A DNA stretch of 64,000 bases. Origin: Candidatus Nanopelagicales bacterium. GTDB lineage: Bacteria > Actinomycetota > Actinomycetes > S36-B12. Positions within the stretch are counted from its first letter, which is position 1; the number at the start of each line of letters is the position of its first letter. The DNA is taken from positions 9,199 through 73,198 of the forward strand of contig JBBATH010000009.1 of NCBI GenBank assembly GCA_040398845.1, written 5' to 3'. Of this stretch, positions 8,017 to 45,492 are shown piece after piece. The notes beneath the pieces were generated by a model that made no database searches, was not told where the DNA came from, and saw only the letters and a program-made list of their open reading frames with translations. Both the position numbers and the translations under genes were made by a program.

Positions 8017-8915
8017 TTCGGCTTGAAGACACGAGCGGCGGTGCGGTTTCAGCGGCCATCGCTGCGGAGCGTCATCGGATGGGCTCACCGACCACCGGCA
8101 TGGTGCTCACCCTCCTCATCATGGCCGACGAGGACACCCAGTCCGATGCGACCTCGGCCGCGGTCACCGCCGCACGTCAGCATCCGATGAGGATCGTGAC
8201 CCTCATCCCCCGCCCAGAGGGCAAGATCACCCGACTTGACGCCGAGATCATGGTGGGCGGCGATGCGGGCCCGGGCGAGGTCGCGGTGCTGCGTCTTCGT
8301 GGACAACTTGCCGAGCATGCAAACTCCGTGGCAGTCCCCTTGCTGCTCCCTGACACTCCCATCGTGGCCTACTGGCCAGGTGTCGCTCCCGCGGTGCCGT
8401 CCGATGATCTCATCGGGCGCCATGCACAACGGCGCATCACCGACACCGCGGCGGCTGCTGATCCGGTGAGCGAACTCCAGACGCGCAGCTTGGGCTATGT
8501 TCCCGGAGACACGGACCTCGCTTGGGCTCGCATCACGCCGTGGCGCTCTGTCCTCGCCTCACTCTTTGATCAGGAGGTTGCAGAGGTGTCTGGGATCATG
8601 GTGAGTGGTGAGCGCTCGAACCCTTGCGTCCCGCTGATCGCGGCCTGGCTCGGAGCGGCTCTCGCAACACCCGTGGAGATTCGACTCGACGAGGGCCCCG
8701 GTCTCACATCGGTCGAGCTCACCACCCCATTGGGTCTGATGACCATCCACCGCTCCGACGGTCGGGTGGCGACCCTGAGCCGGCCCGGAGTTCCCGACTC
8801 CACCGTTGCCCTGGCACGACGTGACCTGGCCGCCCTCTTGAGCGAGGAACTACGCAGACTGGATCCGGACGACTGCTACGCACACACGCTCGCCGGGCTC
8901 GGAATCACCCGGTGA
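8013..8915 (+). CDS. opcA: glucose-6-phosphate dehydrogenase assembly protein OpcA
   Basis: It lies directly after zwf with an ATGA overlap at 8013-8016. Length is about 300 aa, and the position between zwf and pgl is the conserved actinobacterial one. The ORF-track start at 7953 overlaps zwf and is less likely. Confidence 0.85.
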   Translation: MIRLEDTSGGAVSAAIAAERHRMGSPTTGMVLTLLIMADEDTQSDATSAAVTAARQHPMRIVTLIPRPEGKITRLDAEIMVGGDAGPGEVAVLRLRGQLAEHANSVAVPLLLPDTPIVAYWPGVAPAVPSDDLIGRHAQRRITDTAAAADPVSELQTRSLGYVPGDTDLAWARITPWRSVLASLFDQEVAEVSGIMVSGERSNPCVPLIAAWLGAALATPVEIRLDEGPGLTSVELTTPLGLMTIHRSDGRVATLSRPGVPDSTVALARRDLAALLSEELRRLDPDDCYAHTLAGLGITR

Positions 8916-9685
8916 CCCATCGGGAGGTGGTCCGTCATCAGGATGCCCGAACCCTTGCCCTATCGGTGGCAGAGATGCTCACGTCACGTATCGTCGAGCG
9001 GCAGGCTGACATGGGTTTCGCTCGAATCGTTCTCACCGGCGGCGGAATCGGAACAGCGGTTCTCGCCGCCGTCCGTGAGACCGGCCGCGATAACGTCGAT
9101 TGGGCTCGAGTCGAATTCTGGTGGGGCGACGAGCGGTATCTCCCCTCCGGAGATCCAAATCGAAACGATACCGCTGCTCGAGCAGCCCTCCTTGATCATG
9201 TCGGTGTCGACCAGCAGCATGTTCATTCGATTGAGGGTCCTGACCTCATGGCGAGCCCGGAGCAAGCCGCGGAGCACTACGCCGATCTCCTCAACGCGCA
9301 TGCCGCGGCAGCGGACCACCGTGATGTTCCTCCCTTCGATGTGGTGCTGCTCGGCGTTGGCCCTGACGGACATGTGGCGAGTCTGTTCCCTCAGCAAACA
9401 TCGCTGCGTGTGACTGATCGATCAACCGCCGCCGTGCACGGTTCGCCGAAGCCTCCGCCAACCCGGGTCACCCTCACCTTTCCAGCCATCAATGCGGCGA
9501 GCGAGGTTTGGGTTCTCGCGAGCGGGACCGAAAAGGCGGAAGCGGTGCGCCTTGCACTAGAGCCAGCGACAGACCCACGTCAGGTGCCTGCGGCTGGGGT
9601 CTCGGGTCGCGACCGCACCCTCTTCCTCATCGATGAGGAAGCAGCAGCGGAGCTACCGCTTGATCTCAGGCAACCGATGTCCTGA
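8912..9685 (+). CDS. pgl: 6-phosphogluconolactonase
   Basis: 257 aa, with LTGGGIG, WWGDERYLP and LLGVGPDGHVASLFP motifs. GTGA overlap with opcA. Confidence 0.93.
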   Translation: MTHREVVRHQDARTLALSVAEMLTSRIVERQADMGFARIVLTGGGIGTAVLAAVRETGRDNVDWARVEFWWGDERYLPSGDPNRNDTAARAALLDHVGVDQQHVHSIEGPDLMASPEQAAEHYADLLNAHAAAADHRDVPPFDVVLLGVGPDGHVASLFPQQTSLRVTDRSTAAVHGSPKPPPTRVTLTFPAINAASEVWVLASGTEKAEAVRLALEPATDPRQVPAAGVSGRDRTLFLIDEEAAAELPLDLRQPMS

Positions 9686-9696
9686 TCCCCGACACA

Positions 9697-10332
9697 TCAT
9701 GACCGCGCAACCTCCCGCATCTGTTCGATCGTGGCGCACAGCGCGACCATCCCCAACTCGAACCCTGATTCGTCAATGTGTTTGCGCGGGCTACTCCGCA
9801 GTGCTCGCCCGATCGCGGGGAAATCGACGTCATAGGACTGCGCCGAGCCGACGAAGCCAGCACTGAACGGCTCGACAGCGGAGCCCAGCACCAGATAGTC
9901 GAGGAGTGCCATGACCGGCATGATCGACGGTGCCGGCACCCCGACTCGCACGAGAAAAGCCGCGATAGGTTCATAAATCGCGAGCGCGTAATCCTCGTTG
10001 ATCGCCCGTGACACTATAAAAGTTGCGGCAACATGATGGACGCGATGGCAGTTGAGGTAACTCCTCGCCATGGTGCGCAGGTCCGATAGATCCTCGCTGG
10101 CCGCAAGCACACTCGTGTCGATATCGGCGTTGATGCGTCGATGAACAAGGGTGATCACGTCGTCAATCCCGCTTACGTGCGCGTACAGCGACGGCGCTTG
10201 AATGCCGAGTCGTGCAGCGAGAACGCGCATCGTGAACGCAGATTCACTCTTGGACTCGTCGAGAATTGCGAGCGCAGCCTCGCCGATGAGTTCGCGCGTG
10301 ACCCCGGGTCGAGCAGTTGTTTTCAGCAACAT
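9697..10332 (-). CDS. TetR/AcrR family transcriptional regulator
   Basis: 211 aa with an N-terminal HTH (FTMRVLAARLGIQAPSLYAHV) and a helical C-terminal ligand domain. It is divergent from the pot-like operon. Confidence 0.88.
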   Translation of the reverse strand: MLLKTTARPGVTRELIGEAALAILDESKSESAFTMRVLAARLGIQAPSLYAHVSGIDDVITLVHRRINADIDTSVLAASEDLSDLRTMARSYLNCHRVHHVAATFIVSRAINEDYALAIYEPIAAFLVRVGVPAPSIMPVMALLDYLVLGSAVEPFSAGFVGSAQSYDVDFPAIGRALRSSPRKHIDESGFELGMVALCATIEQMREVARS

Positions 10333-10388
10333 GCTCGGCTGACCCCTCTTTCATGTTACGACTTGGTAAAAGATCTTCCGCCCCCTTC

Positions 10389-10401
10389 CTAACGTCGTTA
10401 G
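10389..10401. promoter_or_regulatory. candidate TetR operator: perfect 6-1-6 palindrome CTAACG-T-CGTTAG
   Basis: Read directly from the sequence. It lies in the 114-nt divergent region between the TetR gene and potA, about 45 nt upstream of the likely potA start. Confidence 0.45.
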
Positions 10402-10419
10402 TCTCCGTGACACGCTCGC

Positions 10420-11517
10420 TTGACGTCAACCCTTTCGGAGGAACCCTTGGACGCTTCGGCTCCAGCGCTCAGCGTGCGGGACGTTACGAAGACATTCCAA
10501 ACGCCAGAGGGTGGCCAGATCCACGCTCTCGATTCAGTGAGTCTGGACATCGCTGACGGATCCTTCATGGTGCTCCTAGGTCCCTCCGGCTGCGGCAAAA
10601 CCACCCTGCTGCGCTGCATAGCCGGCCTCGAGTCCCCGGACTCCGGACGGATTGACCTTCGGGGGCAACGCATCGACGACATGCCCGTTTGGCGTCGGCG
10701 GGTGAACACGGTCTTTCAGTCATACGCCCTGTTCCCCCATATGACCGTGGCCCAGAACATCGCCTTTGGCCTGCAGATGGACAAGGTGCCGGGCGACATC
10801 ATTAAGCGCAAGGTCAACGAATCCCTCGACATGGTGCACCTGTCCGGCCTTGGCTCGCGTAAACCCTCTCAGCTCTCAGGCGGTCAGCAACAGCGAGTGG
10901 CTCTCGCGAGGGCCCTCGCTAAGGAACCAGAGGTCCTTCTTCTTGACGAGCCACTTTCCGCACTGGACCTTAAATTGCGCCGTGGCATGCAGTCAGAGCT
11001 CAAGCGTCTCCAGCGCGAGACGTCGATCACCTTCGTCCTTGTCACCCATGATCAAGACGAGGCGATGGCGATGGGCGACCAGGTTGCCGTGTTCAACACG
11101 GGCCGGATCGTGCAGGTCGGCGAGCCTCGCGGGGTATATCTACGCCCATGCAGCCGTTTCGTTGCCGACTTCATCGGTGAGGCAAATGTCCTCACCGGTG
11201 CCCTCGATACCTACGGTCTGGTCATTGAGTCCGTGGGCTTTGTTCCACGCGACCGGTTGGTGCCTGACACACAGGCCGCCCTCGGCCAGGTTCACGTAGC
11301 CGTGCGGCCGGAGAACGTCTCACTCCAGATCGATCCAGTTGGGTCGGCCAAGGTCACAGATGTGTCGTACGTCGGTGGCGATATGAGGGTCGAGGCGCTT
11401 GCCGCGACGGCAAGCATCGTCTCTCGGGTGCCATCGCAAGGTGTCCAGCCACCGCGTATTGGCGACCTCGTCAGCGTCAGTTTCACCGAGGGTTCACTCA
11501 CCGTGGTGGCCGACTGA
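10420..11517 (+). CDS. potA: ABC transporter ATP-binding protein, PotA (spermidine/putrescine importer) type with C-terminal TOBE-like domain
   Basis: Walker A GPSGCGKTT, signature LSGGQQQRVALARAL, Walker B LLLDEPLSALD. A more likely start is TTG 10447, preceded by GGAGG at 10436-10440. Confidence 0.92.
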   Translation: MTSTLSEEPLDASAPALSVRDVTKTFQTPEGGQIHALDSVSLDIADGSFMVLLGPSGCGKTTLLRCIAGLESPDSGRIDLRGQRIDDMPVWRRRVNTVFQSYALFPHMTVAQNIAFGLQMDKVPGDIIKRKVNESLDMVHLSGLGSRKPSQLSGGQQQRVALARALAKEPEVLLLDEPLSALDLKLRRGMQSELKRLQRETSITFVLVTHDQDEAMAMGDQVAVFNTGRIVQVGEPRGVYLRPCSRFVADFIGEANVLTGALDTYGLVIESVGFVPRDRLVPDTQAALGQVHVAVRPENVSLQIDPVGSAKVTDVSYVGGDMRVEALAATASIVSRVPSQGVQPPRIGDLVSVSFTEGSLTVVAD

Positions 11518-12461
11518 TGAAGGCACCGTGGTCCCCCACGGCTCGGCAGCGACATCAAGCCGGGCAGGGTTCCTGGTGGAGCGGACTTCCCGGCGTCGTG
11601 TACCTCATCGCGCTGGTGTTCCTTCCCCTTGTCATCATTTTCATCTACTCCTTCCTCAGTCGTGCGAAACTCGGAGTCGGGGTCAAGTGGGAGTTCAGCC
11701 TCACGCCGTACACCGAATTGCTGTACAGCGAGTCCCTCTCAGGAGGCCGGTCCTTTGACCCGACCTACCTCCAAATCATCGCGAACTCCTTCTGGTACGC
11801 AATCATCACGAGCGCCGTCTGCCTCGTTCTCTCAATCCCGATTGCGCTGTGGCTCGCGACCCGCCCGCCCGAGCGCCGAACCGCCCTTGTCTTCGCCGTA
11901 ACGATCCCCTTCTGGACGAGCCTGCTCATCCGCACCTACTCGTTCATCATCATCCTGAACGACAACGGACCGATCAACGGACTCCTCAAGGGCATTGGCA
12001 TCATTGACGAGCCCATCGCGATGCTGTACACCCCGTTCGCCACAGTCGTCGGGCTCGTCTACACGTTCCTTCCGTTCATGATCCTGCCGATCTACGCCAG
12101 TGCAGAACGATTCGACTTCCGCTTGGCCGAAGCCGCCTACGACCTCGGCGCAGCAAAGTGGACCGTCCTGCGCCGCGTCGTTCTCCCGAGCATCAGACCC
12201 GGGATCATCGCCGGTATGGTCCTTGTCTTCATCCCCGCGCTCGGCTCGTACCTCGCTCCTGAACTCCTTGGCGGTGGCAAGACCTCGATGATCGCCAACG
12301 TCATCGCGGCCCAGTTCGGAGCCTCCCGCAACTGGCCATTCGGTGCAGCCCTTTCCGTGCTCCTCCTCGTCATCACCCTGCTTGTGCTCATCACCTTTGC
12401 CGTCGTTGCAAAGCGCGCGAGTCGGGCAGCTGGCCGAGGTGGATGGGAAGCCCTCATATGA
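11517..12461 (+). CDS. potB: ABC transporter permease, PotB type
   Basis: Six-TM BPD-transport protein with an EAA-like loop (AEAAYDLGAAKWTVLRRVVLP). TGATG junction with potA. Confidence 0.9.
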   Translation: MKAPWSPTARQRHQAGQGSWWSGLPGVVYLIALVFLPLVIIFIYSFLSRAKLGVGVKWEFSLTPYTELLYSESLSGGRSFDPTYLQIIANSFWYAIITSAVCLVLSIPIALWLATRPPERRTALVFAVTIPFWTSLLIRTYSFIIILNDNGPINGLLKGIGIIDEPIAMLYTPFATVVGLVYTFLPFMILPIYASAERFDFRLAEAAYDLGAAKWTVLRRVVLPSIRPGIIAGMVLVFIPALGSYLAPELLGGGKTSMIANVIAAQFGASRNWPFGAALSVLLLVITLLVLITFAVVAKRASRAAGRGGWEALI

Positions 12462-13285
12462 CGACAGACAGCAAGCGGACTAGGGGCCGTAGAGGAGGAG
12501 GCGTCGGCCTCGGACTGCGGGACTTCCCGACCTTCAAGGCCGTCTCCTACCTCGTGTTCGTGTTCCTGTATCTCCCATTGATTTTCGTCGTCGCATACTC
12601 GTTCAACTCGAACCGAGTCGTGAGCGTGTGGCGCGGATTTACCTTCTCCTGGTATTCAGAGGTGCTCGGCAACGACGACATCCAGCGTGCGCTCTTCAAC
12701 TCGCTGAGAATCGGCGTCGTCGCCACCATTGTCTCCGTGGTGCTCGCCACTGGCCTCGCGATCGGCTTGCTCACGATGGCTCGGGCCGGTCGAACCTTCG
12801 CATGGACACTTATCGGCGCGCCACTCATCATCCCCGAGATCGTGTTCGCCATCGGCACGCTCGCCCTATTTGTCCAAAGTCGCATACCGCTCGGGGTCAA
12901 CGCCATCACCCTGGCCCACATCGCTTTCTGCGTTCCGTTCGCACTCCTCCCCATCAGAGCCCGGCTCCGCGGCGTCGACCCTGCCGTCTACGAGGCAGCC
13001 GCGGATCTCGGCGCAGGCGAGTTCACGATCTTCCGGCGCATGACGTTGCCGCTCCTCGCACCGGGCATCATTGCCGGTGCCCTCCTCGCCTTCATCATCA
13101 GCCTCGACGACTTCATCGTGTCGTACTTCCTCGCCGGCCCCGGCGGTACCACCCTGCCCGTCTACATCTTCGGGATGATCCGCAACGCCGTTACCCCCGG
13201 GGTCAATGCACTGTCCACCCTCATGCTCATCGCGAGCATCCTCATTGTTTCACTGTCCTATCTGTTGGCCCGAAAAAGGAGATGA
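12443..13285 (+). CDS. potC: ABC transporter permease, PotC type
   Basis: EAA loop YEAAADLGAGEFTIFRRMTLP. An alternative start at ATG 12458 forms an ATGA overlap with the potB stop. Confidence 0.9.
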   Translation: MGSPHMTTDSKRTRGRRGGGVGLGLRDFPTFKAVSYLVFVFLYLPLIFVVAYSFNSNRVVSVWRGFTFSWYSEVLGNDDIQRALFNSLRIGVVATIVSVVLATGLAIGLLTMARAGRTFAWTLIGAPLIIPEIVFAIGTLALFVQSRIPLGVNAITLAHIAFCVPFALLPIRARLRGVDPAVYEAAADLGAGEFTIFRRMTLPLLAPGIIAGALLAFIISLDDFIVSYFLAGPGGTTLPVYIFGMIRNAVTPGVNALSTLMLIASILIVSLSYLLARKRR

Positions 13286-13288
13286 GAA

Positions 13289-14443
13289 ATGATCAAAAAG
13301 AAGACACGACGCGGATTCGCCGCAGCGGTCGCGCTCAGCGCCGCCAGCGTCATGATCCTGGCCGGATGCGGAGGAGAGGCCACCCCGGCCGGTGCCGGCG
13401 CGACCGAGACCGCTGCACCGGCAGCAAGTGAGGCGGCTACGTCAGCTCCCGCTTCTGACTTCCCGACCGCAAACGGAGGTGAACTGAACCTCTACAACTG
13501 GACTGACTACATCTCACCTGAGGTGCTCAAGCGCTTCGAGACCGAGACAGGCATCAAGGTCAACCTCGACAACTTCGACTCAAACGAGACCCTGCTTGCC
13601 AAGCTCCAGGCCGGTGGCGCCAACTACGACGTCATCGTCCCGAGTGACTACATGGTCGCCCAGATGATCGAACTCGGCTTGCTCGAGCAGGTGAATCCCG
13701 CGTCATTCCCCAATGGTCAGAACATCAAGCCAGCGTTCCTTGACGTCTACTTCGATCAGGGACGCGGGTACACGGCGCCGTACATGTACGGCACCACGGG
13801 CATCGCCTACGACCCGAGCAAGACCGGCGGGCCAGTCACGAGTTGGGCAGACTTCTTCTCACCCGACAGCCCTGCCACTGGAAAGATCGGCACCCTCAAC
13901 GATCAGGTCGAGGTCATCCACGCGGCCCTGCGTGCGGTCGGCTCCCAGCCCTGCTCAATCGATAAGGCCGACTATGTCAAGGTCGAGAGCCTGCTCGCGG
14001 GCTGGAAGCCAGGCGTTGCAGTCATCAACTCAGACGGAGTCATCGGTCGCATGGCCAGCGGCGAACAGTCAATGCACATGATGTGGAACGGTGCCTTCCA
14101 CCGCGCCAAGGCCGACAACGCTGGACTCGAATACGCGTTCCCGTCCGAGGGTCTCAACCTCTGGCAGGACAACTTCGCGGTGCCGGTAGGAGCCCAGAAC
14201 GTCGACAACGCGAAGATCTTCATCAACTGGATGATGGATCCCGCAAACATCGGCGAGGCAACCAACTTCGTCGGCTACGACAACGGCATCACGGGTTCGG
14301 ACGCTTTCATGGATGCGGATATCGCCGGTGACCCAGCCGTCGTCATGTCGGCGGAAAACGCCGCACTTGCGAAGCCGACCCCGGGTTGCTCCGTTGAGGC
14401 CATCGACCTGTACGACCAGGTCTGGACCACCTTCAAGAAGTAG
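13289..14443 (+). CDS. potD: extracellular solute-binding lipoprotein, PotD/PotF family
   Basis: Signal peptide with lipobox LAGCGG. NLYNWTDYI is the start typical of PotD/PotF proteins. RBS AAAGGAG lies upstream. Confidence 0.88.
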   Translation: MIKKKTRRGFAAAVALSAASVMILAGCGGEATPAGAGATETAAPAASEAATSAPASDFPTANGGELNLYNWTDYISPEVLKRFETETGIKVNLDNFDSNETLLAKLQAGGANYDVIVPSDYMVAQMIELGLLEQVNPASFPNGQNIKPAFLDVYFDQGRGYTAPYMYGTTGIAYDPSKTGGPVTSWADFFSPDSPATGKIGTLNDQVEVIHAALRAVGSQPCSIDKADYVKVESLLAGWKPGVAVINSDGVIGRMASGEQSMHMMWNGAFHRAKADNAGLEYAFPSEGLNLWQDNFAVPVGAQNVDNAKIFINWMMDPANIGEATNFVGYDNGITGSDAFMDADIAGDPAVVMSAENAALAKPTPGCSVEAIDLYDQVWTTFKK

Positions 14444-14565
14444 TCCATTCACTGAGCTCACCCGGCTCGGGTGGCGCCGCGGCTCAATCGCGATGCCACC
14501 CGAGCGCGGGGGAAACGACATCATCACGACAACCATCGGCATGTTGCCAACAAGATCGGAGCACT

Positions 14566-16203
14566 GTGAGCACGCCCAGCCTTGGAAAGGTCACCCGCAT
14601 CGAGAACGCCGTCGTCTGGACAGGTCGGCAGATCCCCGGCACCGCTGACTACGCAGTCACCGATGCCATCGCCTTTGTGGGCGACAGTGTCCTCGCGCTC
14701 GGCCAAGCGGCACGCTCGATGGCGGCCGACCACATCATCGATGCGCAGGGCGGATTCATCTGCCACGCCTTCGGCGACGGCCATGTGCACTCAATCTTTG
14801 GTGGCCTCGAACAGCAGTTCGCGCCGGTTCGTGGCCATGAGAATCCGCAGGGAATCGCGAGGGCCGTCGGCGAGTGGGCTCGCGCACATCCCGAGGTCCC
14901 ATGGATCAGGGGTGAGGGCTTCGACCACACGCTGGCGCCCAGCGGCATCTTCCACGCCACCTGGCTCGATGCAGAGGTTCCCGACCGTCCCGTCGTGCTT
15001 CGGGCCACCGACTACCACACCGTTTGGGTGAACAGCACCGCCCTGCGGCTCGCAGGCTACGCGCGCGGAGTTGCACAGCCGCACGACGGGGAAATAGTTT
15101 GCGACGAGGTCGGCGACCCGACGGGCACCCTGCGCGAGTGGGGTGCGTGGCGTCCGGTCTACGACCTCATGCCCGAGGTACCCCTCGACATGCGGATGGC
15201 CGCCATCGAGCACGCTGCTCGCTCATTCGCAGCGTCAGGCCTCGCTTGGGTTCAGGATGCCTGGGTTGAGCGCGCCGATGTCAACACGTGGATCGAAGCT
15301 TCCACGCGTGGTCTCCTCACCTTCCGCGCCGATCTCGCACTCTGGGCCGATCCCAATTCCTGGCGTGATCAACTCGCCGGGTTCTCAGAGGACCGCGCAC
15401 GGATCGCCGCCCACGGCTCCCCCGCGCTGTCGGCCAACACGGTCAAATTCTTTGCCGATGGCGTCATCGAATCAGGTACGGGCGCGCTCCTTGAGCCCTA
15501 CTGCGACTGCCCCCACTCCAAGGGCATGCCGAACTGGGATCCCGCCGAACTTGCCCTAGCGGTCACGGCCATCGACGCTCTCGGATTCAATGCTCACATT
15601 CACGCAATCGGAGACGGCGCCGCGCGGATGGCACTCGATGGCATTGAGGCCGCGATCATCGCCAACGGTCCGCGGGATCGTCGCCCCGTCATTGTTCATC
15701 TCCAACTCGTCGATGATGCAGACCTGCCTAGATTCGCGGCCCTCGGTGTTGTCGCCAACTTCGAGCCCTACTGGGCGAAGTTTGACTCCTGGCAGACGGA
15801 GTTGACGGCCCCAAGACTTGGTGAATTGCGCACGAGCCGGCAATACCTCATGAAGAGTCTCGTGGATTCGGGCGCGACCGTCTCGTTTGGCAGCGATTGG
15901 CCGGTGACCACCTATGCTCCGCTGGCCGGCATCCAGGTCGCGGTCAACCGTCGTATGTCAGCCGATCCGGTTGATGAACCGTGGCTCCCAGGTGAGCGCG
16001 TGAACGTCGAGCAAGCCCTTGCTGCCTACACCTCAGGGGTCGGCTGGCAGACCGCCCAGCAAGACGAAGGGCTGCTCCGCCCTGGCGGACGTGCCGATGT
16101 GGTGTGGCTCGCGAAGGATCCTCGCACTGTCGATCCGATGGCAATCGAGGAGATCGCAATTCTGGGCACCTGGTCGTCCGGTGTGCGGGTCCACGGGGGT
16201 TAG
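14566..16203 (+). CDS. metal-dependent amidohydrolase, YtcJ / Amidohydro_3 family
   Basis: 545 aa, with an HxH metal motif (GDGHVHS), later His motifs (NAHIHAIGDGA, VIVHLQLV) and a C-terminal Asp (FGSDWPV). GTG start preceded by GGAG. Confidence 0.85.
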   Translation: MSTPSLGKVTRIENAVVWTGRQIPGTADYAVTDAIAFVGDSVLALGQAARSMAADHIIDAQGGFICHAFGDGHVHSIFGGLEQQFAPVRGHENPQGIARAVGEWARAHPEVPWIRGEGFDHTLAPSGIFHATWLDAEVPDRPVVLRATDYHTVWVNSTALRLAGYARGVAQPHDGEIVCDEVGDPTGTLREWGAWRPVYDLMPEVPLDMRMAAIEHAARSFAASGLAWVQDAWVERADVNTWIEASTRGLLTFRADLALWADPNSWRDQLAGFSEDRARIAAHGSPALSANTVKFFADGVIESGTGALLEPYCDCPHSKGMPNWDPAELALAVTAIDALGFNAHIHAIGDGAARMALDGIEAAIIANGPRDRRPVIVHLQLVDDADLPRFAALGVVANFEPYWAKFDSWQTELTAPRLGELRTSRQYLMKSLVDSGATVSFGSDWPVTTYAPLAGIQVAVNRRMSADPVDEPWLPGERVNVEQALAAYTSGVGWQTAQQDEGLLRPGGRADVVWLAKDPRTVDPMAIEEIAILGTWSSGVRVHGG

Positions 16204-16205
16204 GA

Positions 16206-16955
16206 ATGGCCCTCACCCCGGGCGAGGCTGATCGACTACTCCTGTACACCCAGGGGCTGCTCGCCCGTGAGCGGCACACCCGCGGACTGCTCCTCAACGT
16301 CCCCGAGTCGACTGCGATCATCGCGAATGCTGTCTGCGAGGCCGCTCGTGACGGCATGGATCTCGCGACTGCGCGCGAGACCGGACGTAGCGTTCTCAGC
16401 GCGACAGATGTGCTTCCGGGAGTTGTTGAGATCGTCACGGACGTCTCGGTTGAGGCAAGGTTCGACGACGGCACTCGACTCGTTGTCGTTCGGGACCCGT
16501 TCCGAACAGCACACGATGATGTACCGGCCGAGGTCGAATCGGCGGCCTTCCCATCGACCGGTGCCATTCGAATCGAAAACTGCGCCCTCACCTCGATCGG
16601 TCTCACTTCACACATCCACCTAGCCGAGGTCAACCCGCGACTTCGCCTCGACCGAGGGGTGGCCTATGGCCACCGACTCGCGATCCCGAGCGGCGACACC
16701 ATCTGGATAGCACCGGGCGAGACCATCGAGATTGGAATCCAGCCGATCGCTGGGGCAAGGGTCGTCATCGGTAACACCGGTGTCGTCGATGGCTCGCTTG
16801 ACGATCCCGAGTTGCGCCGAAGGGCGCTCGACATACTGCGCTCCTGCGGATACCTCGATACCGAAACGCAGTCGGCACCCGGATCCCAGGATGGTCTCCC
16901 CCCGGCGGATGATGCCGTGAGGGTGCTCATGGAACGTCGGCAGGTGAACCAGTGA
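16206..16955 (+). CDS. ureAB: urease-like fused gamma-beta subunit (UreAB)
   Basis: The N-terminus, MALTPGEADRLLLYTQGLLARERHTRGLLLNVPESTAII...EARFDDGTRLVVVRDP, aligns with UreA. The second half, SHIHLAEVNPRLRLDRGVAYGHRLAIPSGDTIWIAPGE, aligns with UreB. ATG 16206 lies 2 nt after the amidohydrolase stop. The track start at 16104 overlaps that gene. Confidence 0.88.
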   Translation: MALTPGEADRLLLYTQGLLARERHTRGLLLNVPESTAIIANAVCEAARDGMDLATARETGRSVLSATDVLPGVVEIVTDVSVEARFDDGTRLVVVRDPFRTAHDDVPAEVESAAFPSTGAIRIENCALTSIGLTSHIHLAEVNPRLRLDRGVAYGHRLAIPSGDTIWIAPGETIEIGIQPIAGARVVIGNTGVVDGSLDDPELRRRALDILRSCGYLDTETQSAPGSQDGLPPADDAVRVLMERRQVNQ

Positions 16956-18622
16956 CCGCTCACCCTCGACCATACGGGCCTATCCATGGTGACGTCGTCG
17001 CCCTTGGTGACACCGGGCTGCGGCTGAGGATTACTCGTCGGGTCGATGACGAGCATGACGAGTTTCGAGTCGGTTTCGCGAAGTCTGGCCGTGATGGCAT
17101 CGGACTTCGAGGGGCCACGACGGCCGACTCCTGCGACCTTGTCATCACGAATGTGATTGTCCTAGATCCGGTCGACGGGGTGCAGGTCGCGAGCATCGGG
17201 ATTCGCCAGGGCCGCATATGCGGGATTGGCCGCGCCGGAAATCCCGATACGAGCGATAGCGTCGATCTCATCGTTGGGACAAGCACCGTGGTTATCGATG
17301 GAGACGGACTCATTGCGACTCCTGGTGGCATCGATACCCATGTGCACAGCCTGAGTCCGCGTGTCTTCAATGCAGAAATTTCATCCGGAATCACGACGGT
17401 GATAGGCCAGGAGGCCGGACCGATGTGGGGGGTTGGACTCGGTTCACGCTGGGTCATTGACCGCGCACTGCGGGCAATGGACGCCTTCCCGGTGAACATT
17501 GGACTCCTCGGTCGTGGCTCATCCTCGAACCCGCAGTCAATCCGCGAATCACTCCACGCCCATGCCTGTGGTCTCAAAGTGCACGAGGACACCGGAGCGA
17601 CCCTGCACACCATTGACACCGCCCTTCGCATGGCGGATGAAGCCGATGTTCAGGTTGCGCTCCACACCGATGGCCTGAACGAAACCCTTTCGGTGGCCGA
17701 CACCATCGCTGTTGTCGGTGGCCGAGCAATCCACGCCTTTCACGTCGAAGGATGCGGAGGCGGCCATGCACCTGACGTCCTGCGTCTCGCCGGGCACGAC
17801 AACATCCTTACTTCCTCCACGAACCCGACGCTCCCCTACGGGCTGAATGCTGTGGAAGAGCATCTCGACATGATCATGTTCTGCCATGGAATGGATGCGG
17901 ACCGGGCGAGCGACGTGCGCATCGCACGAGCCCGAGTGCGCGCTGCGACTATGGCCGCCGAAAGTCGCCTGCATGACCGAGGGGTCATCCACATGACCTC
18001 CTCGGATGCTCAAGGTATGGGGCGAGCTGGTGAGACCTGGTGGCGGACCTTCGCTCTCGCCGGGGTGGTCGCCGCCGCCGATCCGGCGCGAGCCGAGCGC
18101 TCAGAGACTGACGACGACAACGAAAGAATCCTGCGCTATCTGGCGAAGATCACCGTCAATCCGGCAATCGTCCATGGCATCGTCCATGAGGTTGGCAGGC
18201 TCGCACCCGGGTTCCTCGCCGACATAGCCCTGTGGAGGCCCGAGATGTTCGCGGCCAAGCCCTGGCTCGTCCTTAAGGGCGGTTTCCCTGCGTGGGGGGT
18301 GACCGGAGACCCGAATGCGAGCATCGACTCCGCTCAGCCGCTCATCCTCGCCGAGCAGTTCGGCGCGATTGGTGCGGCGCCCAGCGACCTTTCATTCCTG
18401 ATTTCCAATGTCGAAGCGATGGCACACGGACATGCTCCAATACCGCGACGAGTCGTCGCGACTTCAGGCTGCCGGACTGTCCGTTCCCGCGACCTTGTCC
18501 GGCACAGTCCACCTGGCGAGGTGCGGGTATCCCCTCAGGGGGACGAGGTCACGTGGAACGGCGAAGCCCTCACCCTTGATCCAGTCCGACACGTGCCGCT
18601 CTCGCGCCTGCACTTCTGGTAG
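16952..18622 (+). CDS. ureC: urease-like alpha (catalytic) subunit
   Basis: 556 aa, with GGIDTHVH, GLKVHEDTG, VALHTDGLNE, HAFHVEGCGGGHAPD, STNPTLPY, EEHLDMIMFCHGMD and TSSDAQGMGRAGE. Collinear with canonical UreC. GTGA overlap with ureAB. Confidence 0.9.
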   Translation: MTAHPRPYGPIHGDVVALGDTGLRLRITRRVDDEHDEFRVGFAKSGRDGIGLRGATTADSCDLVITNVIVLDPVDGVQVASIGIRQGRICGIGRAGNPDTSDSVDLIVGTSTVVIDGDGLIATPGGIDTHVHSLSPRVFNAEISSGITTVIGQEAGPMWGVGLGSRWVIDRALRAMDAFPVNIGLLGRGSSSNPQSIRESLHAHACGLKVHEDTGATLHTIDTALRMADEADVQVALHTDGLNETLSVADTIAVVGGRAIHAFHVEGCGGGHAPDVLRLAGHDNILTSSTNPTLPYGLNAVEEHLDMIMFCHGMDADRASDVRIARARVRAATMAAESRLHDRGVIHMTSSDAQGMGRAGETWWRTFALAGVVAAADPARAERSETDDDNERILRYLAKITVNPAIVHGIVHEVGRLAPGFLADIALWRPEMFAAKPWLVLKGGFPAWGVTGDPNASIDSAQPLILAEQFGAIGAAPSDLSFLISNVEAMAHGHAPIPRRVVATSGCRTVRSRDLVRHSPPGEVRVSPQGDEVTWNGEALTLDPVRHVPLSRLHFW

Positions 18623-18642
18623 TTTGCCCCACCGTGGCCGGT

Positions 18643-18972
18643 TCAGAAGCGGATCTTCTCCAGAGCCTCAGCGAGGATGGCGGCGCCGTCCTCGTCCGAC
18701 CGGCGTTCCTTCACGTAGGCGAGATGGGTCTTGTAGGGCTCCACCTTCTGGGGTGAGGGGGGATTGGCCTGATCAGGTCCAGAGGGCAGTCCGCACCGCG
18801 GGCAGTCCCACTCATCTGGGACGACAGCATCGGACGCGAAACTTGGCTTGGACTCGTGTCCCCTAGAGCACCAATATGAGACCCAGATACGGGGGGCGGC
18901 GTCGCCGCGCTCCGCCTCCCCCATCGGCCCAGCCCCAACACGGCTGCCACGAATGGCACTGCCTCCGGCCAT
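18643..18972 (-). CDS. rbpA: RNA polymerase-binding protein RbpA
   Basis: 109 aa, with IRGSRVG at the N-terminus, a Zn-ribbon-like region (WCSRGHE...CPRCG) and the C-terminal sigma-interaction helix YKTHLAYVKERRSDEDG. This family is Actinobacteria-specific. Confidence 0.92.
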   Translation of the reverse strand: MAGGSAIRGSRVGAGPMGEAERGDAAPRIWVSYWCSRGHESKPSFASDAVVPDEWDCPRCGLPSGPDQANPPSPQKVEPYKTHLAYVKERRSDEDGAAILAEALEKIRF

Positions 18973-19020
18973 GGATGAATCCCTTCGAAACGATCAGTGG
19001 TGCGCGGGTACCTTGCGAAC

Positions 19021-19269
19021 TCAGGTGGCGGTGCGGACAAGCAGACCGACGGCAACGATGCTGGCGGCCCAGACGAGGCCGAGTCCAACGGTAAGGCGAT
19101 CGAGGTTTCGTTCGGCGACCGATGAACCGCCAACCGAGGACGAAACGCCGCCCCCGAAGAGGTCTGACAGTCCCCCGCCCTTACCACGGTGCAGCAGGAT
19201 GAGGACGACGAGCAGGGTGCTCGTGATGACAAGGATCACGGCGAGGACGATGGTGAGGATCTGGACCAT
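19021..19269 (-). CDS. secG: preprotein translocase subunit SecG
   Basis: 82 aa, two TM helices flanking a Gly-rich loop (HRGKGGGLSDLFGGG). Conserved position downstream of tpiA. Confidence 0.9.
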   Translation of the reverse strand: MVQILTIVLAVILVITSTLLVVLILLHRGKGGGLSDLFGGGVSSSVGGSSVAERNLDRLTVGLGLVWAASIVAVGLLVRTAT

Positions 19270-41207: not shown

Positions 41208-41376
41208 CATCGTTGCCGCACCTCCATCGTCGATTCTGGTTATGCTGCCGAAATCTTCGAATGAACGCGCGATGAACGATGTCCATGAGCACGAATGCTG
41301 TGAGGAGGGGTCTGTGCCAGGAGGCTTCCAGTTGATGACTGGATCCAAGAGCGAGGGCGGCGGGATGAGGAGTCCG

Positions 41377-42681
41377 ATGGCGACCGGCAAGGTTGCTCGC
41401 CGGCCGGGCTATCGCCGCGTCGTAGCCTTCGCCCTCGCGCTCTTCGCCGGGTTGCTCATGGCGATCGCCCCCGCGATCGCCGCCGACACCGGGCTCAAGG
41501 GCACGGTTAAGGATCCCACGAGTGGTGCCGGCATCGCCGGGGTCGTCATCACCTCCGAGGGCGATGGCTTCACCGAATCGGCAACGACCGGTGCCGACGG
41601 CAAGTGGGCGATCGCGCTGCCTGGCGAGGGCACCTACACGGTGACACTGGACACGACAAGCCTTCCCTCTGGTCTGGGCCTCGCAAACCCAGAGCGCGGG
41701 ACTACATCGATCGATGCCTACTCGGGACAGGTCAAGACAATCCTTTTCCCGCTCGGCGACGGCTCAGCCCCCGCCCCGGGGTCCGAGGCCGCGTCCAAGT
41801 GGAGTCAGATCCCGCAACTCACCGTTGACGGGATCATCTTCGGCATCGTGATCGCCCTCGCCGCAGTCGGGCTCAGCCTGGTCTTCGGAACCACCAAGCT
41901 CACGAACTTCGCCCATGGCGAGCTCATCGCACTCGGCGCACTCCTCACGTTCTTCTTCAGTTCGATCGTGGGTCTCCCCCTAGTGATCGCGATCGTCGTT
42001 GCCGTTCTAGCTTCGGCGTTCATCGGTGGGTGGGTGCAGAACCGGGTACTGTGGAAGCAGTTGAGGATGCGAGGAACCGGCCTTATCGCAGCGCTCGTGG
42101 TCTCGATCGGCCTCGGGTTCTTCATTCGCTACTTCTTCCTGTTCGTGTTCGGCGGTCAAACACGGCAGTTCGACGAGTTCGCCGGCCAGGCCGGCATCGA
42201 AATAGGCCCGGTCCTCATCACTCCGAAGGACCTCATCGCCAGCTTCGTCGGCGTCATCCTCATCGGTCTCACCACCTACTGGCTGCTGCGCACGAAAGCA
42301 GGCAAGGCCACGCGTGCCGTCGCGGACAATCCCGCGCTCGCGTCGGCTTCCGGGATCGAGGTTGAGAAGGTGATCTCAACTGTGTGGATCCTCGGCGCGG
42401 GGCTGGCCGCCTTCTCCGGTGTCATGATCGGACTTCAGTCCGGCGTGAGCTGGTACATGGGGTTCCAAGTGCTCCTCCTCGTCTTCGCCGGGACAGTTCT
42501 CGGCGGACTCGGCACCGCATTTGGTGCCATCATCGGGTCCCTGATTGTCGGCGTGCTCATTCAACTGTCGACCCTCGTCATCCCGACCGAGCTCAAATAT
42601 GTCGGCGCGCTCGTCGTGCTGATTCTCATCCTCCTCATCCGACCAGAGGGCATCCTCGGTCGGCGTGAGCGGATCGGCTAA
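41377..42681 (+). CDS. livH: branched-chain amino acid (HAAT family) ABC permease LivH with an N-terminal signal peptide and Ig-like (carboxypeptidase-regulatory-like) domain
   Basis: The C-terminal ~290 aa form a LivH-type permease (LTNFAHGE..., TRAVADNPALASASGI). The N-terminal ~140 aa hold a signal sequence (VVAFALALFAGLLMAIAPAIAA) plus GTVKDPTSGAGIAGVVITSEG...TGADGKWAIALPGEGTYTVTLD. The start is taken at ATG 41377, preceded by GAGGAG. The ORF is open to 41242. Confidence 0.85.
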   Translation: MATGKVARRPGYRRVVAFALALFAGLLMAIAPAIAADTGLKGTVKDPTSGAGIAGVVITSEGDGFTESATTGADGKWAIALPGEGTYTVTLDTTSLPSGLGLANPERGTTSIDAYSGQVKTILFPLGDGSAPAPGSEAASKWSQIPQLTVDGIIFGIVIALAAVGLSLVFGTTKLTNFAHGELIALGALLTFFFSSIVGLPLVIAIVVAVLASAFIGGWVQNRVLWKQLRMRGTGLIAALVVSIGLGFFIRYFFLFVFGGQTRQFDEFAGQAGIEIGPVLITPKDLIASFVGVILIGLTTYWLLRTKAGKATRAVADNPALASASGIEVEKVISTVWILGAGLAAFSGVMIGLQSGVSWYMGFQVLLLVFAGTVLGGLGTAFGAIIGSLIVGVLIQLSTLVIPTELKYVGALVVLILILLIRPEGILGRRERIG

Positions 42682-42691
42682 GGGGCGAGAC

Positions 42692-43684
42692 ATGGATTGG
42701 CTCACTGTTTTCCAGAATTCACTCACACAGATGATCGGCGTCTCCGCCATCATCTACTGCCTTGCCGCACTGGGCCTGAACATCCAGTTCGGATATACGG
42801 GACTGCTGAACTTCGGGCAGGCCGGGTTCGCCGCCATCGGCGCCTACGCGATCGCGGTAACGGTCGCAACCCTCGGCTGGCCGCTGTGGCTCGCCCTGTT
42901 CTTCGGCATTCTCGGCGCCATCATCTTCGCACTCCTCCTCGGCATACCCACGCTGCGACTGCGAGCCGACTACCTCGCCATCGTGACGATCGCAGCGGCG
43001 GAGATCATCCGGCAGGTCGCGCGTGCGGTCTCGCTCAATGACTACTTCGGCGGATCGGACGGCATCTCTGGAAAGTACGCCGCCGACTGGTACGCACTCA
43101 ATCCCCTTCCGGTCGGTATCGACACTGCACTCATCCGCTTCAGCCGCAATGATCTATGGGTTGTCATCAACGGCTGGACCCTCGTCGCCGTCATCGTCCT
43201 CATCACCTGGCTGCTGATGCGCTCGCCATGGGGCCGGGTACTGAAGTCGATCCGAGAGGATGAGGACGCCGTTCGCAGCCTCGGCAAGAATGTTTACCTT
43301 TACAAGATGCAGGCGCTTACGCTCGGGGGCGTGATTGGCGCCTTCGCCGGCGTCATCTTCGCTGTCGCTGCGCAGTCGGTTCAACCAGACAACTACTCGA
43401 CGACCCTCACCTTCTTCGCCTACGCGGTACTCATCCTCGGCGGTGCAGCCCGAGTCTTCGGTCCGGTGGTCGGCTCAATGATCTTCTGGTTCCTCCTCGT
43501 GTTCGTCGGCCAAGCTCTCAACAATGCTGTCAAGGCCGGCTACATCTCCAGCAGCATCCTGCGGCCAGACCAAGTTGGCCAGATTCAGTTCATGCTTGTC
43601 GGATTGGGGCTGATGGCCCTGATGATCTACCGGCCACAAGGCATCTTCGGAGACGAGAAGGAGTTGGCTCTCGATGAGCGATAG
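42692..43684 (+). CDS. livM: branched-chain amino acid ABC permease LivM
   Basis: Polytopic protein with LNIQFGYTGLLNFGQAGFAAIGAY and SIREDEDAVRSLG motifs. ATG 42692 is preceded by AAGGGG. The ORF is open to 42665. Confidence 0.88.
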   Translation: MDWLTVFQNSLTQMIGVSAIIYCLAALGLNIQFGYTGLLNFGQAGFAAIGAYAIAVTVATLGWPLWLALFFGILGAIIFALLLGIPTLRLRADYLAIVTIAAAEIIRQVARAVSLNDYFGGSDGISGKYAADWYALNPLPVGIDTALIRFSRNDLWVVINGWTLVAVIVLITWLLMRSPWGRVLKSIREDEDAVRSLGKNVYLYKMQALTLGGVIGAFAGVIFAVAAQSVQPDNYSTTLTFFAYAVLILGGAARVFGPVVGSMIFWFLLVFVGQALNNAVKAGYISSSILRPDQVGQIQFMLVGLGLMALMIYRPQGIFGDEKELALDER

Positions 43685-45388: not shown

Positions 45389-45417
45389 GCATCCCTGCGC
45401 CAGACGCGCACTTAGCA

Positions 45418-45453: not shown

Positions 45454-45492
45454 GCGGCCTATTGGCCTTGACGTTGGCGTGACCAATGAAAC

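What the first reader, a model, noticed from the sequence alone, without database searches (positions are those of the whole stretch)
9697..18622. TetR-flanked operon joining a Pot-type importer, a YtcJ amidohydrolase and a fused urease-like enzyme
Seen in sequence: seven co-directional ORFs (10420-18622) are packed as one unit.
- Junctions: TGATG at 11515-11519, ATGA at 12458-12461, a 3-nt gap at 13286-13288, a 122-nt structured spacer, a 2-nt gap at 16204-16205, and GTGA at 16952-16955.
- A divergent TetR gene shares an intergenic region that holds a perfect palindrome.

Established knowledge:
- PotABCD importers carry polyamines.
- Amidohydro_3/YtcJ enzymes cleave C-N bonds of diverse amides (N-substituted formamide deformylase and D-aminoacylases belong to this superfamily branch).
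- Urease structural genes normally sit with ureD/E/F/G.

Inference: this looks like a ligand-inducible catabolic module. An imported nitrogen-rich amine derivative (ureido-, guanidino- or acyl-substituted) would be cleaved first by the amidohydrolase. Urea or a urea analogue would then be cleaved by the urease-like enzyme. I know of no characterised pathway with this gene combination.
Basis: partly seen in the sequence, partly recalled or inferred. Interest (0 to 1): 0.7.

Follow-up and report, generated by a model that had tools for sequence, protein, structure and literature searches.

The report
Polyamine importer, amidohydrolase, orphan urease-like operon
A freshwater actinobacterium carries a repressor-controlled gene block that joins a polyamine-type importer, an uncharacterised amidohydrolase and an unusual urease relative that never sits next to the usual nickel-loading helper genes, so it probably releases ammonia from a nitrogen-rich amine by chemistry not yet characterised.

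Summary

Comparative data add four points:
- **Conserved module.** TetR | PotABCD–YtcJ amidohydrolase (AH3)–UreAB–UreC recurs in many freshwater Nanopelagicales-like genomes, at two different chromosomal sites.
- **Operator.** CTAAC-N3-GTTAG occurs once in the window, once in each of 13 related TetR–potA intergenic regions, and in none of 160 other loci.
- **Spacer hairpin.** All 36 distinct potD–AH3 spacers hold a GC-rich hairpin without a U-tail. Most leave no room for a promoter, so it is more likely an mRNA stabiliser or attenuator than a unit boundary.
- **Distinct urease clade.** The urease pair belongs to a monophyletic ure(AB)C lineage, 43–51% identical to canonical UreC, which share at least 56% with each other. 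All metal and catalytic residues are invariant in 87 of 87 members, but pocket and flap positions are replaced. No ureD/E/F/G lies in 163 related loci.

Neighbours are often agmatine-deiminase-like genes, NCS1 permeases or Amidohydro_3 genes.

Most likely this is an inducible catabolic module for a substituted polyamine, ending in a urea or ureido hydrolase. Substrates remain inferred, and I found no published characterisation.

The parts
9697..10332 (-). TetR-family repressor gene (211 aa), divergent from the operon
   Evidence: NCBIfam gives a weak TetR hit. PDB 2G7G, a Rhodococcus TetR-family regulator, matches at 1e-17 over residues 11-204. The orthologue in L003 carries a TetR_C_1 hit.
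10356..10369 (.). Second conserved inverted repeat, TTAC-N6-GTAA, in the divergent promoter region; role unknown
   Evidence: Related TTACGA...GT(A/G)A motifs sit at the same relative place in most aligned intergenic regions. Not analysed further.
10389..10401 (.). Probable TetR operator, CTAACGTCGTTAG (core CTAAC-N3-GTTAG)
   Evidence: One copy in the window. One copy in each of 13 orthologous TetR-potA intergenic regions, although the surrounding sequence has diverged. Absent from the other 160 loci.
10447..11517 (+). PotA-like ABC ATPase (ABC_tran + TOBE_2); alternative start TTG 10420
   Evidence: Pfam 2.5e-38. NCBIfam PotA scores 358.5 bits, below the equivalog cut-off of 482. A conserved GGAGGA lies 4 nt before TTG 10447.
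11517..12461 (+). PotB-like permease
   Evidence: BPD_transp_1. NCBIfam PotB scores 231 bits against a cut-off of 348. Its start overlaps the potA stop (TGATG).
12458..13285 (+). PotC-like permease
   Evidence: BPD_transp_1. NCBIfam PotC scores 229 bits against a cut-off of 326. ATGA overlap with the previous gene.
13289..14443 (+). PotD/PotF/SpuE-like substrate-binding lipoprotein (lipobox LAGC)
   Evidence: SBP_bac_8, 4.1e-28. Best solved relatives are SpuE 3TTL (3e-56), PotD and PotF. The WTDY, WNG, WxD and GY motifs are kept in those alignments.
14461..14510 (+). GC-rich hairpin just after potD; probable 3' mRNA stabiliser or partial attenuator
   Evidence: Fold of the spacer gives -52.1 kcal/mol, z = -3.75. 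All 36 distinct orthologous spacers hold a hairpin (median 16 bp). Only 2 of 36 have a U-tail. The median distance to the next start is 12 nt. No Rfam match.
14566..16203 (+). YtcJ-type amidohydrolase (Amidohydro_3, 'AH3'), substrate unknown
   Evidence: Pfam 1.5e-81. HxH, K294, H344/H346, H378 and D444 are invariant in 14 orthologues. The closest structures are the uncharacterised 3ICJ and 3IGH.
16206..16955 (+). Fused urease gamma+beta subunit (UreAB)
   Evidence: Urease_gamma 3.4e-31 and Urease_beta 1.4e-17. NCBIfam 'bifunctional gamma/beta' scores 222 bits against a cut-off of 243. Alignment A2.
16952..18622 (+). Urease alpha-subunit homologue of the ure(AB)C clade
   Evidence: NCBIfam subfamily NF009686 scores 649 bits and passes. 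Equivalog TIGR01792 scores 558.8, below its cut-off of 680. It is 44-45% identical to canonical UreC. The catalytic residues are all kept while the pocket and flap are remodelled.

Best explanation
This is a TetR-repressed, ligand-inducible nitrogen-scavenging operon of a freshwater Nanopelagicales-like actinobacterium.

**Proposed mechanism**
1. The TetR protein binds CTAAC-N3-GTTAG between the divergent promoters until a ligand releases it.
2. A PotABCD-type ABC importer, with a lipoprotein binding protein of the PotD/PotF/SpuE kind, takes up a polyamine-like cation. Most likely this is a diamine carrying a guanidino, ureido or acyl group, such as agmatine, N-carbamoylputrescine or an acylated polyamine.
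3. The hairpin after potD keeps the binding-protein message abundant while letting some transcription run on.
4. Two binuclear-metal hydrolases then strip nitrogen from the substrate. One is the YtcJ-type amidohydrolase. The other is a two-gene urease homologue, fused UreAB plus UreC.
5. That homologue belongs to a separate actinobacterial ure(AB)C clade. It keeps the complete urease catalytic machinery but has a remodelled substrate pocket and flap, and is encoded away from ureDEFG.
6. It hydrolyses the urea or mono-substituted urea (N-carbamoyl amine) formed in the pathway to amine, CO2 and NH3.

**Shown:** gene identities, module conservation, operator conservation, hairpin conservation, clade separation, residue conservation and replacement, and absence of nearby accessory genes.

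**Inferred:** the ligand, the substrates, the order of the steps, the metal, and independence from accessory proteins.
For: **Gene families:**

**Module conservation**
- Of 55 species-level genomic loci with both flanks available, 19 have Pot+AH3+ure(AB)C, 10 have AH3+ure(AB)C, 2 have Pot+AH3 and 24 have neither Pot nor ure(AB)C next to AH3.
- The same order, with proteins only 56-83% identical, sits at a different chromosomal site in L003 (identities).
- A distant soil locus, L122, joins ure(AB)C, a Pot-type ABC system and an Amidohydro_3 gene in another arrangement. L144 and L163 pair ure(AB)C with distant Amidohydro_3 genes.

**Operator footprint:**

**Hairpin:** present in all 36 distinct spacers, with too little room for a promoter in most.

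**ure(AB)C clade**
- It is monophyletic with a long stem. Members are 43-51% identical to any canonical UreC, while canonical enzymes from Bacteria and Archaea share at least 56%.
- H134, H136, K217, H219, D221, H246, H272, H320, R336 and D360 (K. aerogenes numbering) are invariant in 87 of 87 members.
- Positions invariant in 7 canonical enzymes are replaced clade-wide: the GTxATTCTPG loop is replaced and 4 residues shorter, plus W222T/M/L/I, A276C, H321G/D/N/S, F332I/M/L, S361A and A363G.

**Accessory genes:** no UreD/E/F/G match in the window or in 163 loci, while UreG was found at 54-59% identity in the controls.

**Context pointing to guanidino or ureido amines**
- PAD_porph (agmatine-deiminase-like) genes lie next to ure(AB)C in 13 of 44 loci, in three different arrangements.
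- NCS1 permeases, class-III aminotransferases and a CN-hydrolase also recur.
- AH3 orthologues elsewhere sit beside acetylpolyamine-amidohydrolase-like and DMFase-like genes.
Against: - No biochemical or transcript data exist.
- The active-site core is so urease-like that plain urea remains a fully viable substrate.
- Accessory genes could lie elsewhere in the genome. Only 64 kb of this genome, and +/-10 kb of the relatives, were seen.
- The AH3-urease link is facultative: 27 of 70 AH3 loci lack the urease.
- The AH3-importer link is facultative too, so the three parts may serve overlapping but not identical pathways.
- The transporter proteins all score below the NCBIfam equivalog cut-offs for PotABCD, so the cargo is uncertain.
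- My statement that the replaced residues line the pocket rests on recalled urease structures, not on a distance calculation.
Confidence: 0.5

Rival explanations
1. This is an ordinary nickel urease. UreAB-UreC hydrolyses urea and is matured by UreDFG(E) encoded elsewhere in the genome. It sits beside a polyamine importer and an unrelated amidohydrolase only because all three are nitrogen-scavenging genes under common control.
For: - All Ni ligands, the carbamylated lysine and the catalytic His/Arg/Asp are invariant.
- NCBIfam subfamily 'urease subunit alpha' passes its cut-off.
- Streptomyces genomes with ure(AB)C also hold complete ureABCFGD clusters (PMC2492869, PMC5489568).
- Ni use in relatives is shown by Ni-SOD genes near the locus in L002 and L003.
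Against: - The equivalog model fails (558.8 against 680).
- The clade is more distant from all canonical ureases than bacterial and archaeal ureases are from each other.
- Canonically invariant pocket and flap residues are replaced clade-wide.
- There are 0 accessory genes in 163 loci.
- Agmatine-deiminase-like enzymes recur next door, and their product is a substituted urea, not urea.
- Members sit inside Streptomyces NRPS clusters.
Confidence: 0.3
2. There are two independent units. TetR controls only potABCD, the hairpin at 14461-14510 is a factor-independent terminator without a U-tail (a type described in actinobacteria), and AH3-ureAB-ureC is a separate operon that merely lies downstream.
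For: - A strong hairpin is conserved after potD in every locus.
- AH3-ure(AB)C occurs without pot genes in 10 of 55 loci, and pot-AH3 without the urease in 2.
- In the window, 60 nt remain between the hairpin and the AH3 start.
Against: - In most loci the hairpin ends 0-12 nt before the AH3 start, leaving no space for a promoter.
- The whole block, including tetR, has moved together between chromosomal sites.
- No promoter-like site lies in the spacer, though that scan uses an E. coli-type consensus.
Confidence: 0.15
3. The ure(AB)C pair is a decaying or non-catalytic remnant of a urease operon that lost its accessory genes.
For: No accessory genes are nearby. In L001 the AH3 and ureAB genes are fragmented.
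Against: - Open frames are intact and 87 of 87 members conserve every catalytic residue across 51-100% identity.
- Homologues are very abundant in metagenomes: 7442 hits at E <= 1e-30.
- Translational coupling to the neighbouring genes is tight.
Confidence: 0.03

Closest known systems
Canonical Ni-urease UreABC with UreDEFG (Klebsiella aerogenes, Sporosarcina pasteurii)
   Same: Same three domains (gamma, beta, alpha) and the same fold. All metal ligands, the carbamylated Lys, H219, D221, H320 and R336 are kept.
   Different: - Only 44-45% identical.
- Gamma and beta are fused.
- The conserved GTxATTCTPG loop is replaced by a loop 4 residues shorter.
- W222, A276, H321, F332, S361 and A363 are replaced.
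- No accessory genes lie in the locus.
Streptomyces ure(AB)C clusters without accessory genes (e.g. SCO5525/SCO5526)
   Same: Two-gene layout, with fused ureAB followed by ureC and no ureFGD adjacent (PMC2492869, PMC5489568). The Streptomyces plasmid copies fetched here group with the clade at 49-69% identity.
   Different: - The function of these clusters is not established in the papers found.
- The Streptomyces copies examined sit in NRPS clusters, not next to a Pot importer or an Amidohydro_3 gene.
- I did not retrieve SCO5526 itself.
Helicobacter mustelae UreA2B2 iron urease (PDB 3QGA)
   Same: A two-polypeptide urease with fused gamma-beta. From established knowledge, it is active without the Ni accessory proteins.
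   Different: It is no closer in sequence than other ureases (463 bits against 492 for Klebsiella). It comes from a different lineage, and the metal in the present clade is unknown.
PotABCD / PotFGHI / SpuDEFGH polyamine ABC importers
   Same: Same four components and gene order. The binding protein is closest to SpuE, PotD and PotF.
   Different: All four proteins score below the NCBIfam equivalog cut-offs. Cargo is unverified. The system is embedded with two hydrolases and a TetR regulator.
Agmatine deiminase / N-carbamoylputrescine amidohydrolase pathway (AguA/AguB)
   Same: AguA-like (PAD_porph) genes recur beside ure(AB)C in relatives, and a CN-hydrolase does so in some. The chemistry, guanidino to ureido to amine, would fit a urease-like second step.
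   Different: The window itself has no PAD or CN-hydrolase gene. The PAD-like proteins score below the AguA equivalog cut-off (266 against 382). A urease-family enzyme acting on N-carbamoylputrescine has not been described, to my knowledge.
YtcJ-type Amidohydro_3 enzymes (N-substituted formamide deformylase NfdA; Pyrococcus 3ICJ/3IGH)
   Same: Same Pfam family and fold, with the binuclear-centre residues kept.
   Different: Only 22-26% identical to the solved, uncharacterised members. No functional assignment can be transferred.

Membership tests
Urease (EC 3.5.1.5), canonical UreABC | Alpha subunit with the Urease_alpha N-domain plus an amidohydrolase barrel; gamma and beta subunits present | tested here: met
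   Pfam PF00449 + PF01979, PF00547 + PF00699.
Urease (EC 3.5.1.5), canonical UreABC | Ni ligands H134, H136, K217*, H246, H272 and D360, plus H219, D221, H320 and R336 | tested here: met
   Invariant in the window protein and in 87 of 87 clade members.
Urease (EC 3.5.1.5), canonical UreABC | Scores as an equivalog of characterised ureases | tested here: not met
   TIGR01792 scores 558.8 bits against a cut-off of 680, and the other UreC equivalog models also score below their cut-offs. Only the subfamily model NF009686 passes. Identity to canonical UreC is 44-45%, against at least 56% among canonical enzymes.
Urease (EC 3.5.1.5), canonical UreABC | Conserved pocket and flap residues (A167-loop GTxATTCTPG, W222, H321, F332, A363) | tested here: not met
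   Replaced clade-wide. Their location in the pocket is taken from recalled structures.
Urease (EC 3.5.1.5), canonical UreABC | Accessory genes ureD/F/G (and E) co-located | tested here: not met
   No tblastn match in the 64-kb window or in 163 related loci, while controls were positive. The rest of the genome was not seen.
Urease (EC 3.5.1.5), canonical UreABC | Hydrolyses urea; contains nickel | not testable with these tools
   Needs an enzyme assay and metal analysis.
PotABCD spermidine/putrescine importer | ATPase, two permeases and a binding protein in one operon | tested here: met
PotABCD spermidine/putrescine importer | Equivalog-level similarity to PotA/B/C/D | tested here: not met
   358 against 482; 231 against 348; 229 against 326; 167 against 582 bits.
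PotABCD spermidine/putrescine importer | Polyamine-binding aromatic and acidic residues in the binding protein | tested here: inconclusive
   The WTDY, WNG, WxD and GY motifs align with SpuE and PotD. Residue roles are taken from memory, and specificity cannot be read off.
TetR-family repressor with palindromic operator | TetR fold (N-terminal HTH plus ligand domain) | tested here: met
   PDB 2G7G at 1e-17 over 11-204, and TetR(D) weakly. Pfam itself gave no hit at 1e-3.
TetR-family repressor with palindromic operator | Conserved inverted repeat in the divergent promoter region | tested here: met
   CTAAC-N3-GTTAG is present in 14 of 14 such regions and absent from 160 other loci. Binding was not tested.
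Amidohydro_3 / YtcJ-like metal-dependent hydrolase | Pfam PF07969 over the full length, with metal-binding residues | tested here: met
   1.5e-81 over 57-543. H73, H75, K294, H344, H346, H378 and D444 are invariant. Fold match to 3ICJ and 3IGH.

The most novel reading that the evidence does not exclude
The ure(AB)C clade are not ureases in the strict sense. They would be self-assembling binuclear-metal hydrolases, independent of accessory proteins, that cleave mono-substituted ureas such as N-carbamoylputrescine. That would complete a so far undescribed route from guanidino- or ureido-polyamines to amine + CO2 + NH3. The first step would be done either by an agmatine-deiminase-like enzyme or, as in this window, by the YtcJ-type amidohydrolase. 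Through abundant Nanopelagicales-like bacteria, this route could be a sizeable sink for dissolved organic nitrogen in lakes.
Probability: 0.3. Interest if true: 0.8.

Novelty: new variant of a known kind. Interest (0 to 1): 0.6.

Why it matters
- **Enzymology.** Urease is the textbook nickel enzyme, and its need for UreDEFG is considered a hallmark. Here is a large, conserved and environmentally abundant sister clade (7442 database proteins at E <= 1e-30). It keeps the catalytic core, changes the pocket, and is never encoded beside accessory genes. That suggests either a different metal or assembly route, or a different substrate.
- **Annotation.** These genes are currently annotated simply as 'urease subunit alpha', so urea-use potential in freshwater and soil Actinomycetota may be misjudged in metagenomic nitrogen budgets.
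- **Testability.** The operon supplies a ready experimental handle: a matching importer, a regulator with a defined operator, and a partner amidohydrolase. Together these could be used to find the natural substrate.

Tried and rejected
- **Rfam.** A scan of 9500-19100 at E <= 1 gave nothing, so the spacer is not a known riboswitch or leader.
- **Promoter and terminator scan.** No enrichment, and no canonical U-tailed terminator in the operon.
- **AH3 function.** Sequence and fold searches against the PDB returned only uncharacterised Pyrococcus proteins and then generic amidohydrolases, so there is no functional transfer.
- **Neighbour census.** My own ORF calling plus clustering was noisy in high-GC contigs. 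It under-counted PAD genes (2 against 13 by tblastn), so the statistics rest on tblastn.
- **Recent horizontal transfer.** The module's GC content (0.60-0.64) matches its flanks.
- **Other genes in the window.** No canonical urease or accessory match anywhere in its 64 kb, and no PAD or CN-hydrolase match above the cut-offs applied.
- **Downstream Liv-type ABC system (41242-46890).** It scores below the Urt equivalog cut-offs, so it is not evidence for urea uptake.
- **Literature.** Searches on ure(AB)C, orphan or accessory-free ureases, urease with agmatine deiminase, and Nanopelagicales urease found no functional study.

Full report
**1. Observation**

- A divergent gene lies at 9697-10332 (-).
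- Seven co-directional genes run from 10420 (more likely 10447) to 18622.
- They are joined by TGATG (11515-11519), ATGA (12458-12461), a 3-nt gap, a 122-nt spacer, a 2-nt gap and GTGA (16952-16955).
- The palindrome CTAACGTCGTTAG is at 10389-10401.

Profile searches give these families:
- ABC ATPase with a TOBE domain
- two BPD_transp_1 permeases
- an SBP_bac_8 lipoprotein
- Amidohydro_3, at 1.5e-81
- fused Urease_gamma+Urease_beta
- Urease_alpha+Amidohydro_1

The divergent gene is a TetR-family protein, with PDB 2G7G at 1e-17.

The block lies between two core actinobacterial operons. Upstream are zwf-opcA-pgl. Downstream, on the other strand, are rbpA-secG-tpi-pgk-gap-whiA. GC content does not differ from the flanks.

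**2. Source and relatives**

Both the alpha subunit and the amidohydrolase have thousands of close homologues in freshwater metagenomes and in MAGs labelled Nanopelagicales, Actinomycetes or acSTL.

A scan of one genome per species with an alignment of the amidohydrolase (AH3) returned 80 loci. A metagenome scan with an alignment of the fused UreAB returned 80 more. I annotated these by tblastn with the window's proteins and with reference proteins.

**3. Is the combination conserved?**

Yes, as a module, but facultatively.
- Of 70 genomic AH3 loci with enough downstream sequence, 43 have ureAB-ureC directly downstream.
- Of 55 with both flanks, 19 have Pot+AH3+urease, 10 have AH3+urease, 2 have Pot+AH3 and 24 have neither Pot nor ure(AB)C next to AH3.

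The window's closest relatives (L004, L006-L010, L089-L091) keep the block between pgl and rbpA. More distant ones (L003/L024, L030, L039, L055 and others) have the same order, including tetR, between an acetyltransferase gene and pdtaS. Their proteins are 52-83% identical to the window's. At that second site some genomes have AH3 alone (L015, L018), so the urease pair is gained or lost next to AH3.

A distant soil contig (L122) combines ure(AB)C, a Pot-type ABC system and an Amidohydro_3 gene in a convergent layout. L144 and L163 pair ure(AB)C with Amidohydro_3 genes only 34-39% identical to the window's. Recurrence in different arrangements argues for a functional link.

**4. Regulation**

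Aligning the TetR-potA intergenic regions shows the flanks diverging while CCTAAC-N3-GTTAGTCT stays.
- CTAAC-N3-GTTAG occurs once in the 64-kb window.
- It occurs once in each of 13 related loci, always in that intergenic region.
- It is absent from the other 160 loci held.

This is a clear phylogenetic footprint of an operator. A second inverted repeat (TTAC-N6-GTAA, 10356-10369) is also semi-conserved and remains unexplained.

**5. The spacer**

The 122-nt spacer folds into a long GC-rich hairpin at 14461-14510 (-52.1 kcal/mol, z = -3.75). Across 36 distinct orthologous spacers:
- every one has such a hairpin (median 16 bp), although the sequences differ;
- it starts a median of 7 nt after the potD stop;
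- only 2 have a U-rich tail;
- it ends a median of 12 nt before the AH3 start, and 0-6 nt before it in many loci.

That leaves no room for an internal promoter in most loci. The element is therefore best read as a 3' stabiliser or partial attenuator that raises binding-protein mRNA, as is known for other ABC operons, rather than as a unit boundary. It matches no Rfam family. Transcript data are needed.

**6. The urease homologue**

I aligned 87 alpha subunits of this type with seven canonical UreC proteins from Klebsiella, E. coli, Thermus, Paracoccus, Acinetobacter, Rubrobacter and Natrinema.

The catalytic core is intact. Every metal ligand and catalytic residue is invariant in 87 of 87 members: K. 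aerogenes H134, H136, K217, H219, D221, H246, H272, H320, R336 and D360, plus G277 and M364.

Positions invariant in the canonical set are replaced across the clade:
- the GTxATTCTPG loop that holds A167 becomes G(V/P)Gxx(S/T), four residues shorter;
- G157Q, W222T/M/L/I, T249G, G254L, F255S and A276C;
- V318 and C319 become variable;
- H321G/D/N/S, F332I/M/L, E334R, S361A and A363G.

From recalled structures, several of these lie in the mobile flap or line the urea pocket. I could not measure distances.

Identity separates the groups:
- canonical against canonical, at least 56%;
- clade against best canonical, 43-51%;
- in a neighbour-joining tree the clade is monophyletic on a long stem.

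NCBIfam agrees. The subfamily model passes, while the equivalog model fails at 558.8 against 680.

**7. No accessory genes nearby**

tblastn with UreD, UreE, UreF and UreG found nothing in the window or in any of the 163 related loci, which together hold about 2 Mb of flanking DNA. It did find UreG at 54-59% identity in the Streptomyces and Rubrobacter controls.

Two papers note that Streptomyces ure(AB)C clusters lack accessory genes (PMC2492869, PMC5489568). I found no functional study. Whether the carriers have ureDFG elsewhere could not be checked.

**8. Context of the clade**

In 44 metagenome loci with usable flanks, ure(AB)C neighbours were as follows:
- PAD_porph (agmatine-deiminase-like) genes in 13
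- Amidohydro_3 genes in 13
- Pot-type genes in 10
- NCS1 permeases in 3

The PAD-like genes occur in three arrangements: directly upstream, directly downstream and divergent. A Pfam census of neighbours also found class-III aminotransferases, TetR regulators and an arginase-family gene.

L002 has NCS1 - TetR::CN-hydrolase - PAD-like - UreAB - UreC. Its PAD-like protein resembles AguA but scores below the equivalog cut-off, 266 against 382.

AH3 orthologues without the urease sit beside acetylpolyamine-amidohydrolase-like (Hist_deacetyl) and DMFase-beta-like genes and a Liv-type ABC system. Two Streptomyces plasmids carry clade members inside NRPS clusters.

The common theme is metabolism of guanidino-, ureido- or acyl-substituted amines.

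**9. Importer and AH3**

The binding protein is a lipoprotein closest to SpuE, PotD and PotF. It keeps the WTDY, WNG, WxD and GY motifs, which fits a polyamine-like cation. All four transporter proteins fall below the equivalog cut-offs.

AH3 keeps a binuclear-centre signature. An AlphaFold model (pLDDT 83) matches only the uncharacterised 3ICJ and 3IGH, and then generic amidohydrolases. Its substrate is open.

**10. Verdict**

The substrate, the order of steps and the metal remain inferred.

The main rival is an ordinary urease matured by genes elsewhere.

The most interesting part is the ure(AB)C clade itself. It is a distinct, abundant and uncharacterised sister lineage of urease.

Noticed in passing
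window 10356-10369: A second inverted repeat, TTAC-N6-GTAA, lies in the tetR-potA intergenic region. Related motifs sit at the same relative position in most orthologous regions. It could be a second operator or a promoter element.
   Followed up: partly
L084 1-11499 and L085 1-11510 (Streptomyces plasmids NZ_CP109401.1, NZ_CP109047.1): ure(AB)C-type genes, about 52% identical to the window's, sit inside an NRPS cluster. Its genes are an adenylation protein, a condensation protein, an APH-type phosphotransferase, a 528-aa protein with no Pfam hit, UreAB, UreC and a 2OG-Fe(II) oxygenase. A urease homologue in a biosynthetic cluster suggests a non-urea substrate.
   Followed up: partly
L045-L054 and L059, upstream of the AH3 match (e.g. 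L046 5016-8876, L059 1306-2412): AH3 orthologues without a urease are preceded by three things: a Hist_deacetyl (acetylpolyamine-amidohydrolase-like) gene, a 765-aa protein like the N,N-dimethylformamidase beta subunit, and Liv-type ABC permeases.
   Followed up: partly
L002 6664-8187: A single 507-aa ORF joins TetR_N/TetR_C_6 to a CN_hydrolase domain, directly upstream of the PAD-like gene and ure(AB)C. It is either a regulator-enzyme fusion or an assembly or frameshift artefact.
   Followed up: no
window 8912-9685 / 18643-18972, compared with L003 2240-13150: The same eight-gene block occupies two different chromosomal sites in related lineages: pgl|rbpA here, and acetyltransferase|pdtaS elsewhere. 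No mobile-element genes were noticed at the borders.
   Followed up: partly
window 18623-18642: Only 20 nt separate the stop of ureC from the stop of the convergent rbpA gene, and no terminator-like hairpin was called there.
   Followed up: no
window 41242-46890: A Liv/HAAT-type ABC transporter is present: two permeases, two ATPases and a convergent binding protein. It resembles Urt and Liv systems but scores below all equivalog cut-offs. A response regulator follows at 47007-47729.
   Followed up: partly
L001 7653-10004: In a 2.0-Mb MAG contig the AH3 and ureAB genes are split into fragments while ureC is intact. These are either pseudogenes or long-read frameshift errors.
   Followed up: no
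L004, L005, L008, L010, L066, L069 (record titles): Several freshwater MAG records that hold near-identical copies of this locus are titled 'Bifidobacterium breve' in the public record. This is evidently a mislabel, because the same sequences occur in Nanopelagicales MAGs.
   Followed up: no
window 16206-16955 (UreAB residues ~205-249): The fused gamma-beta protein has a C-terminal extension after a conserved CGYLD motif. It is present in the freshwater clade but truncated in the Streptomyces copies (alignment A2). Its role is unknown.
   Followed up: no
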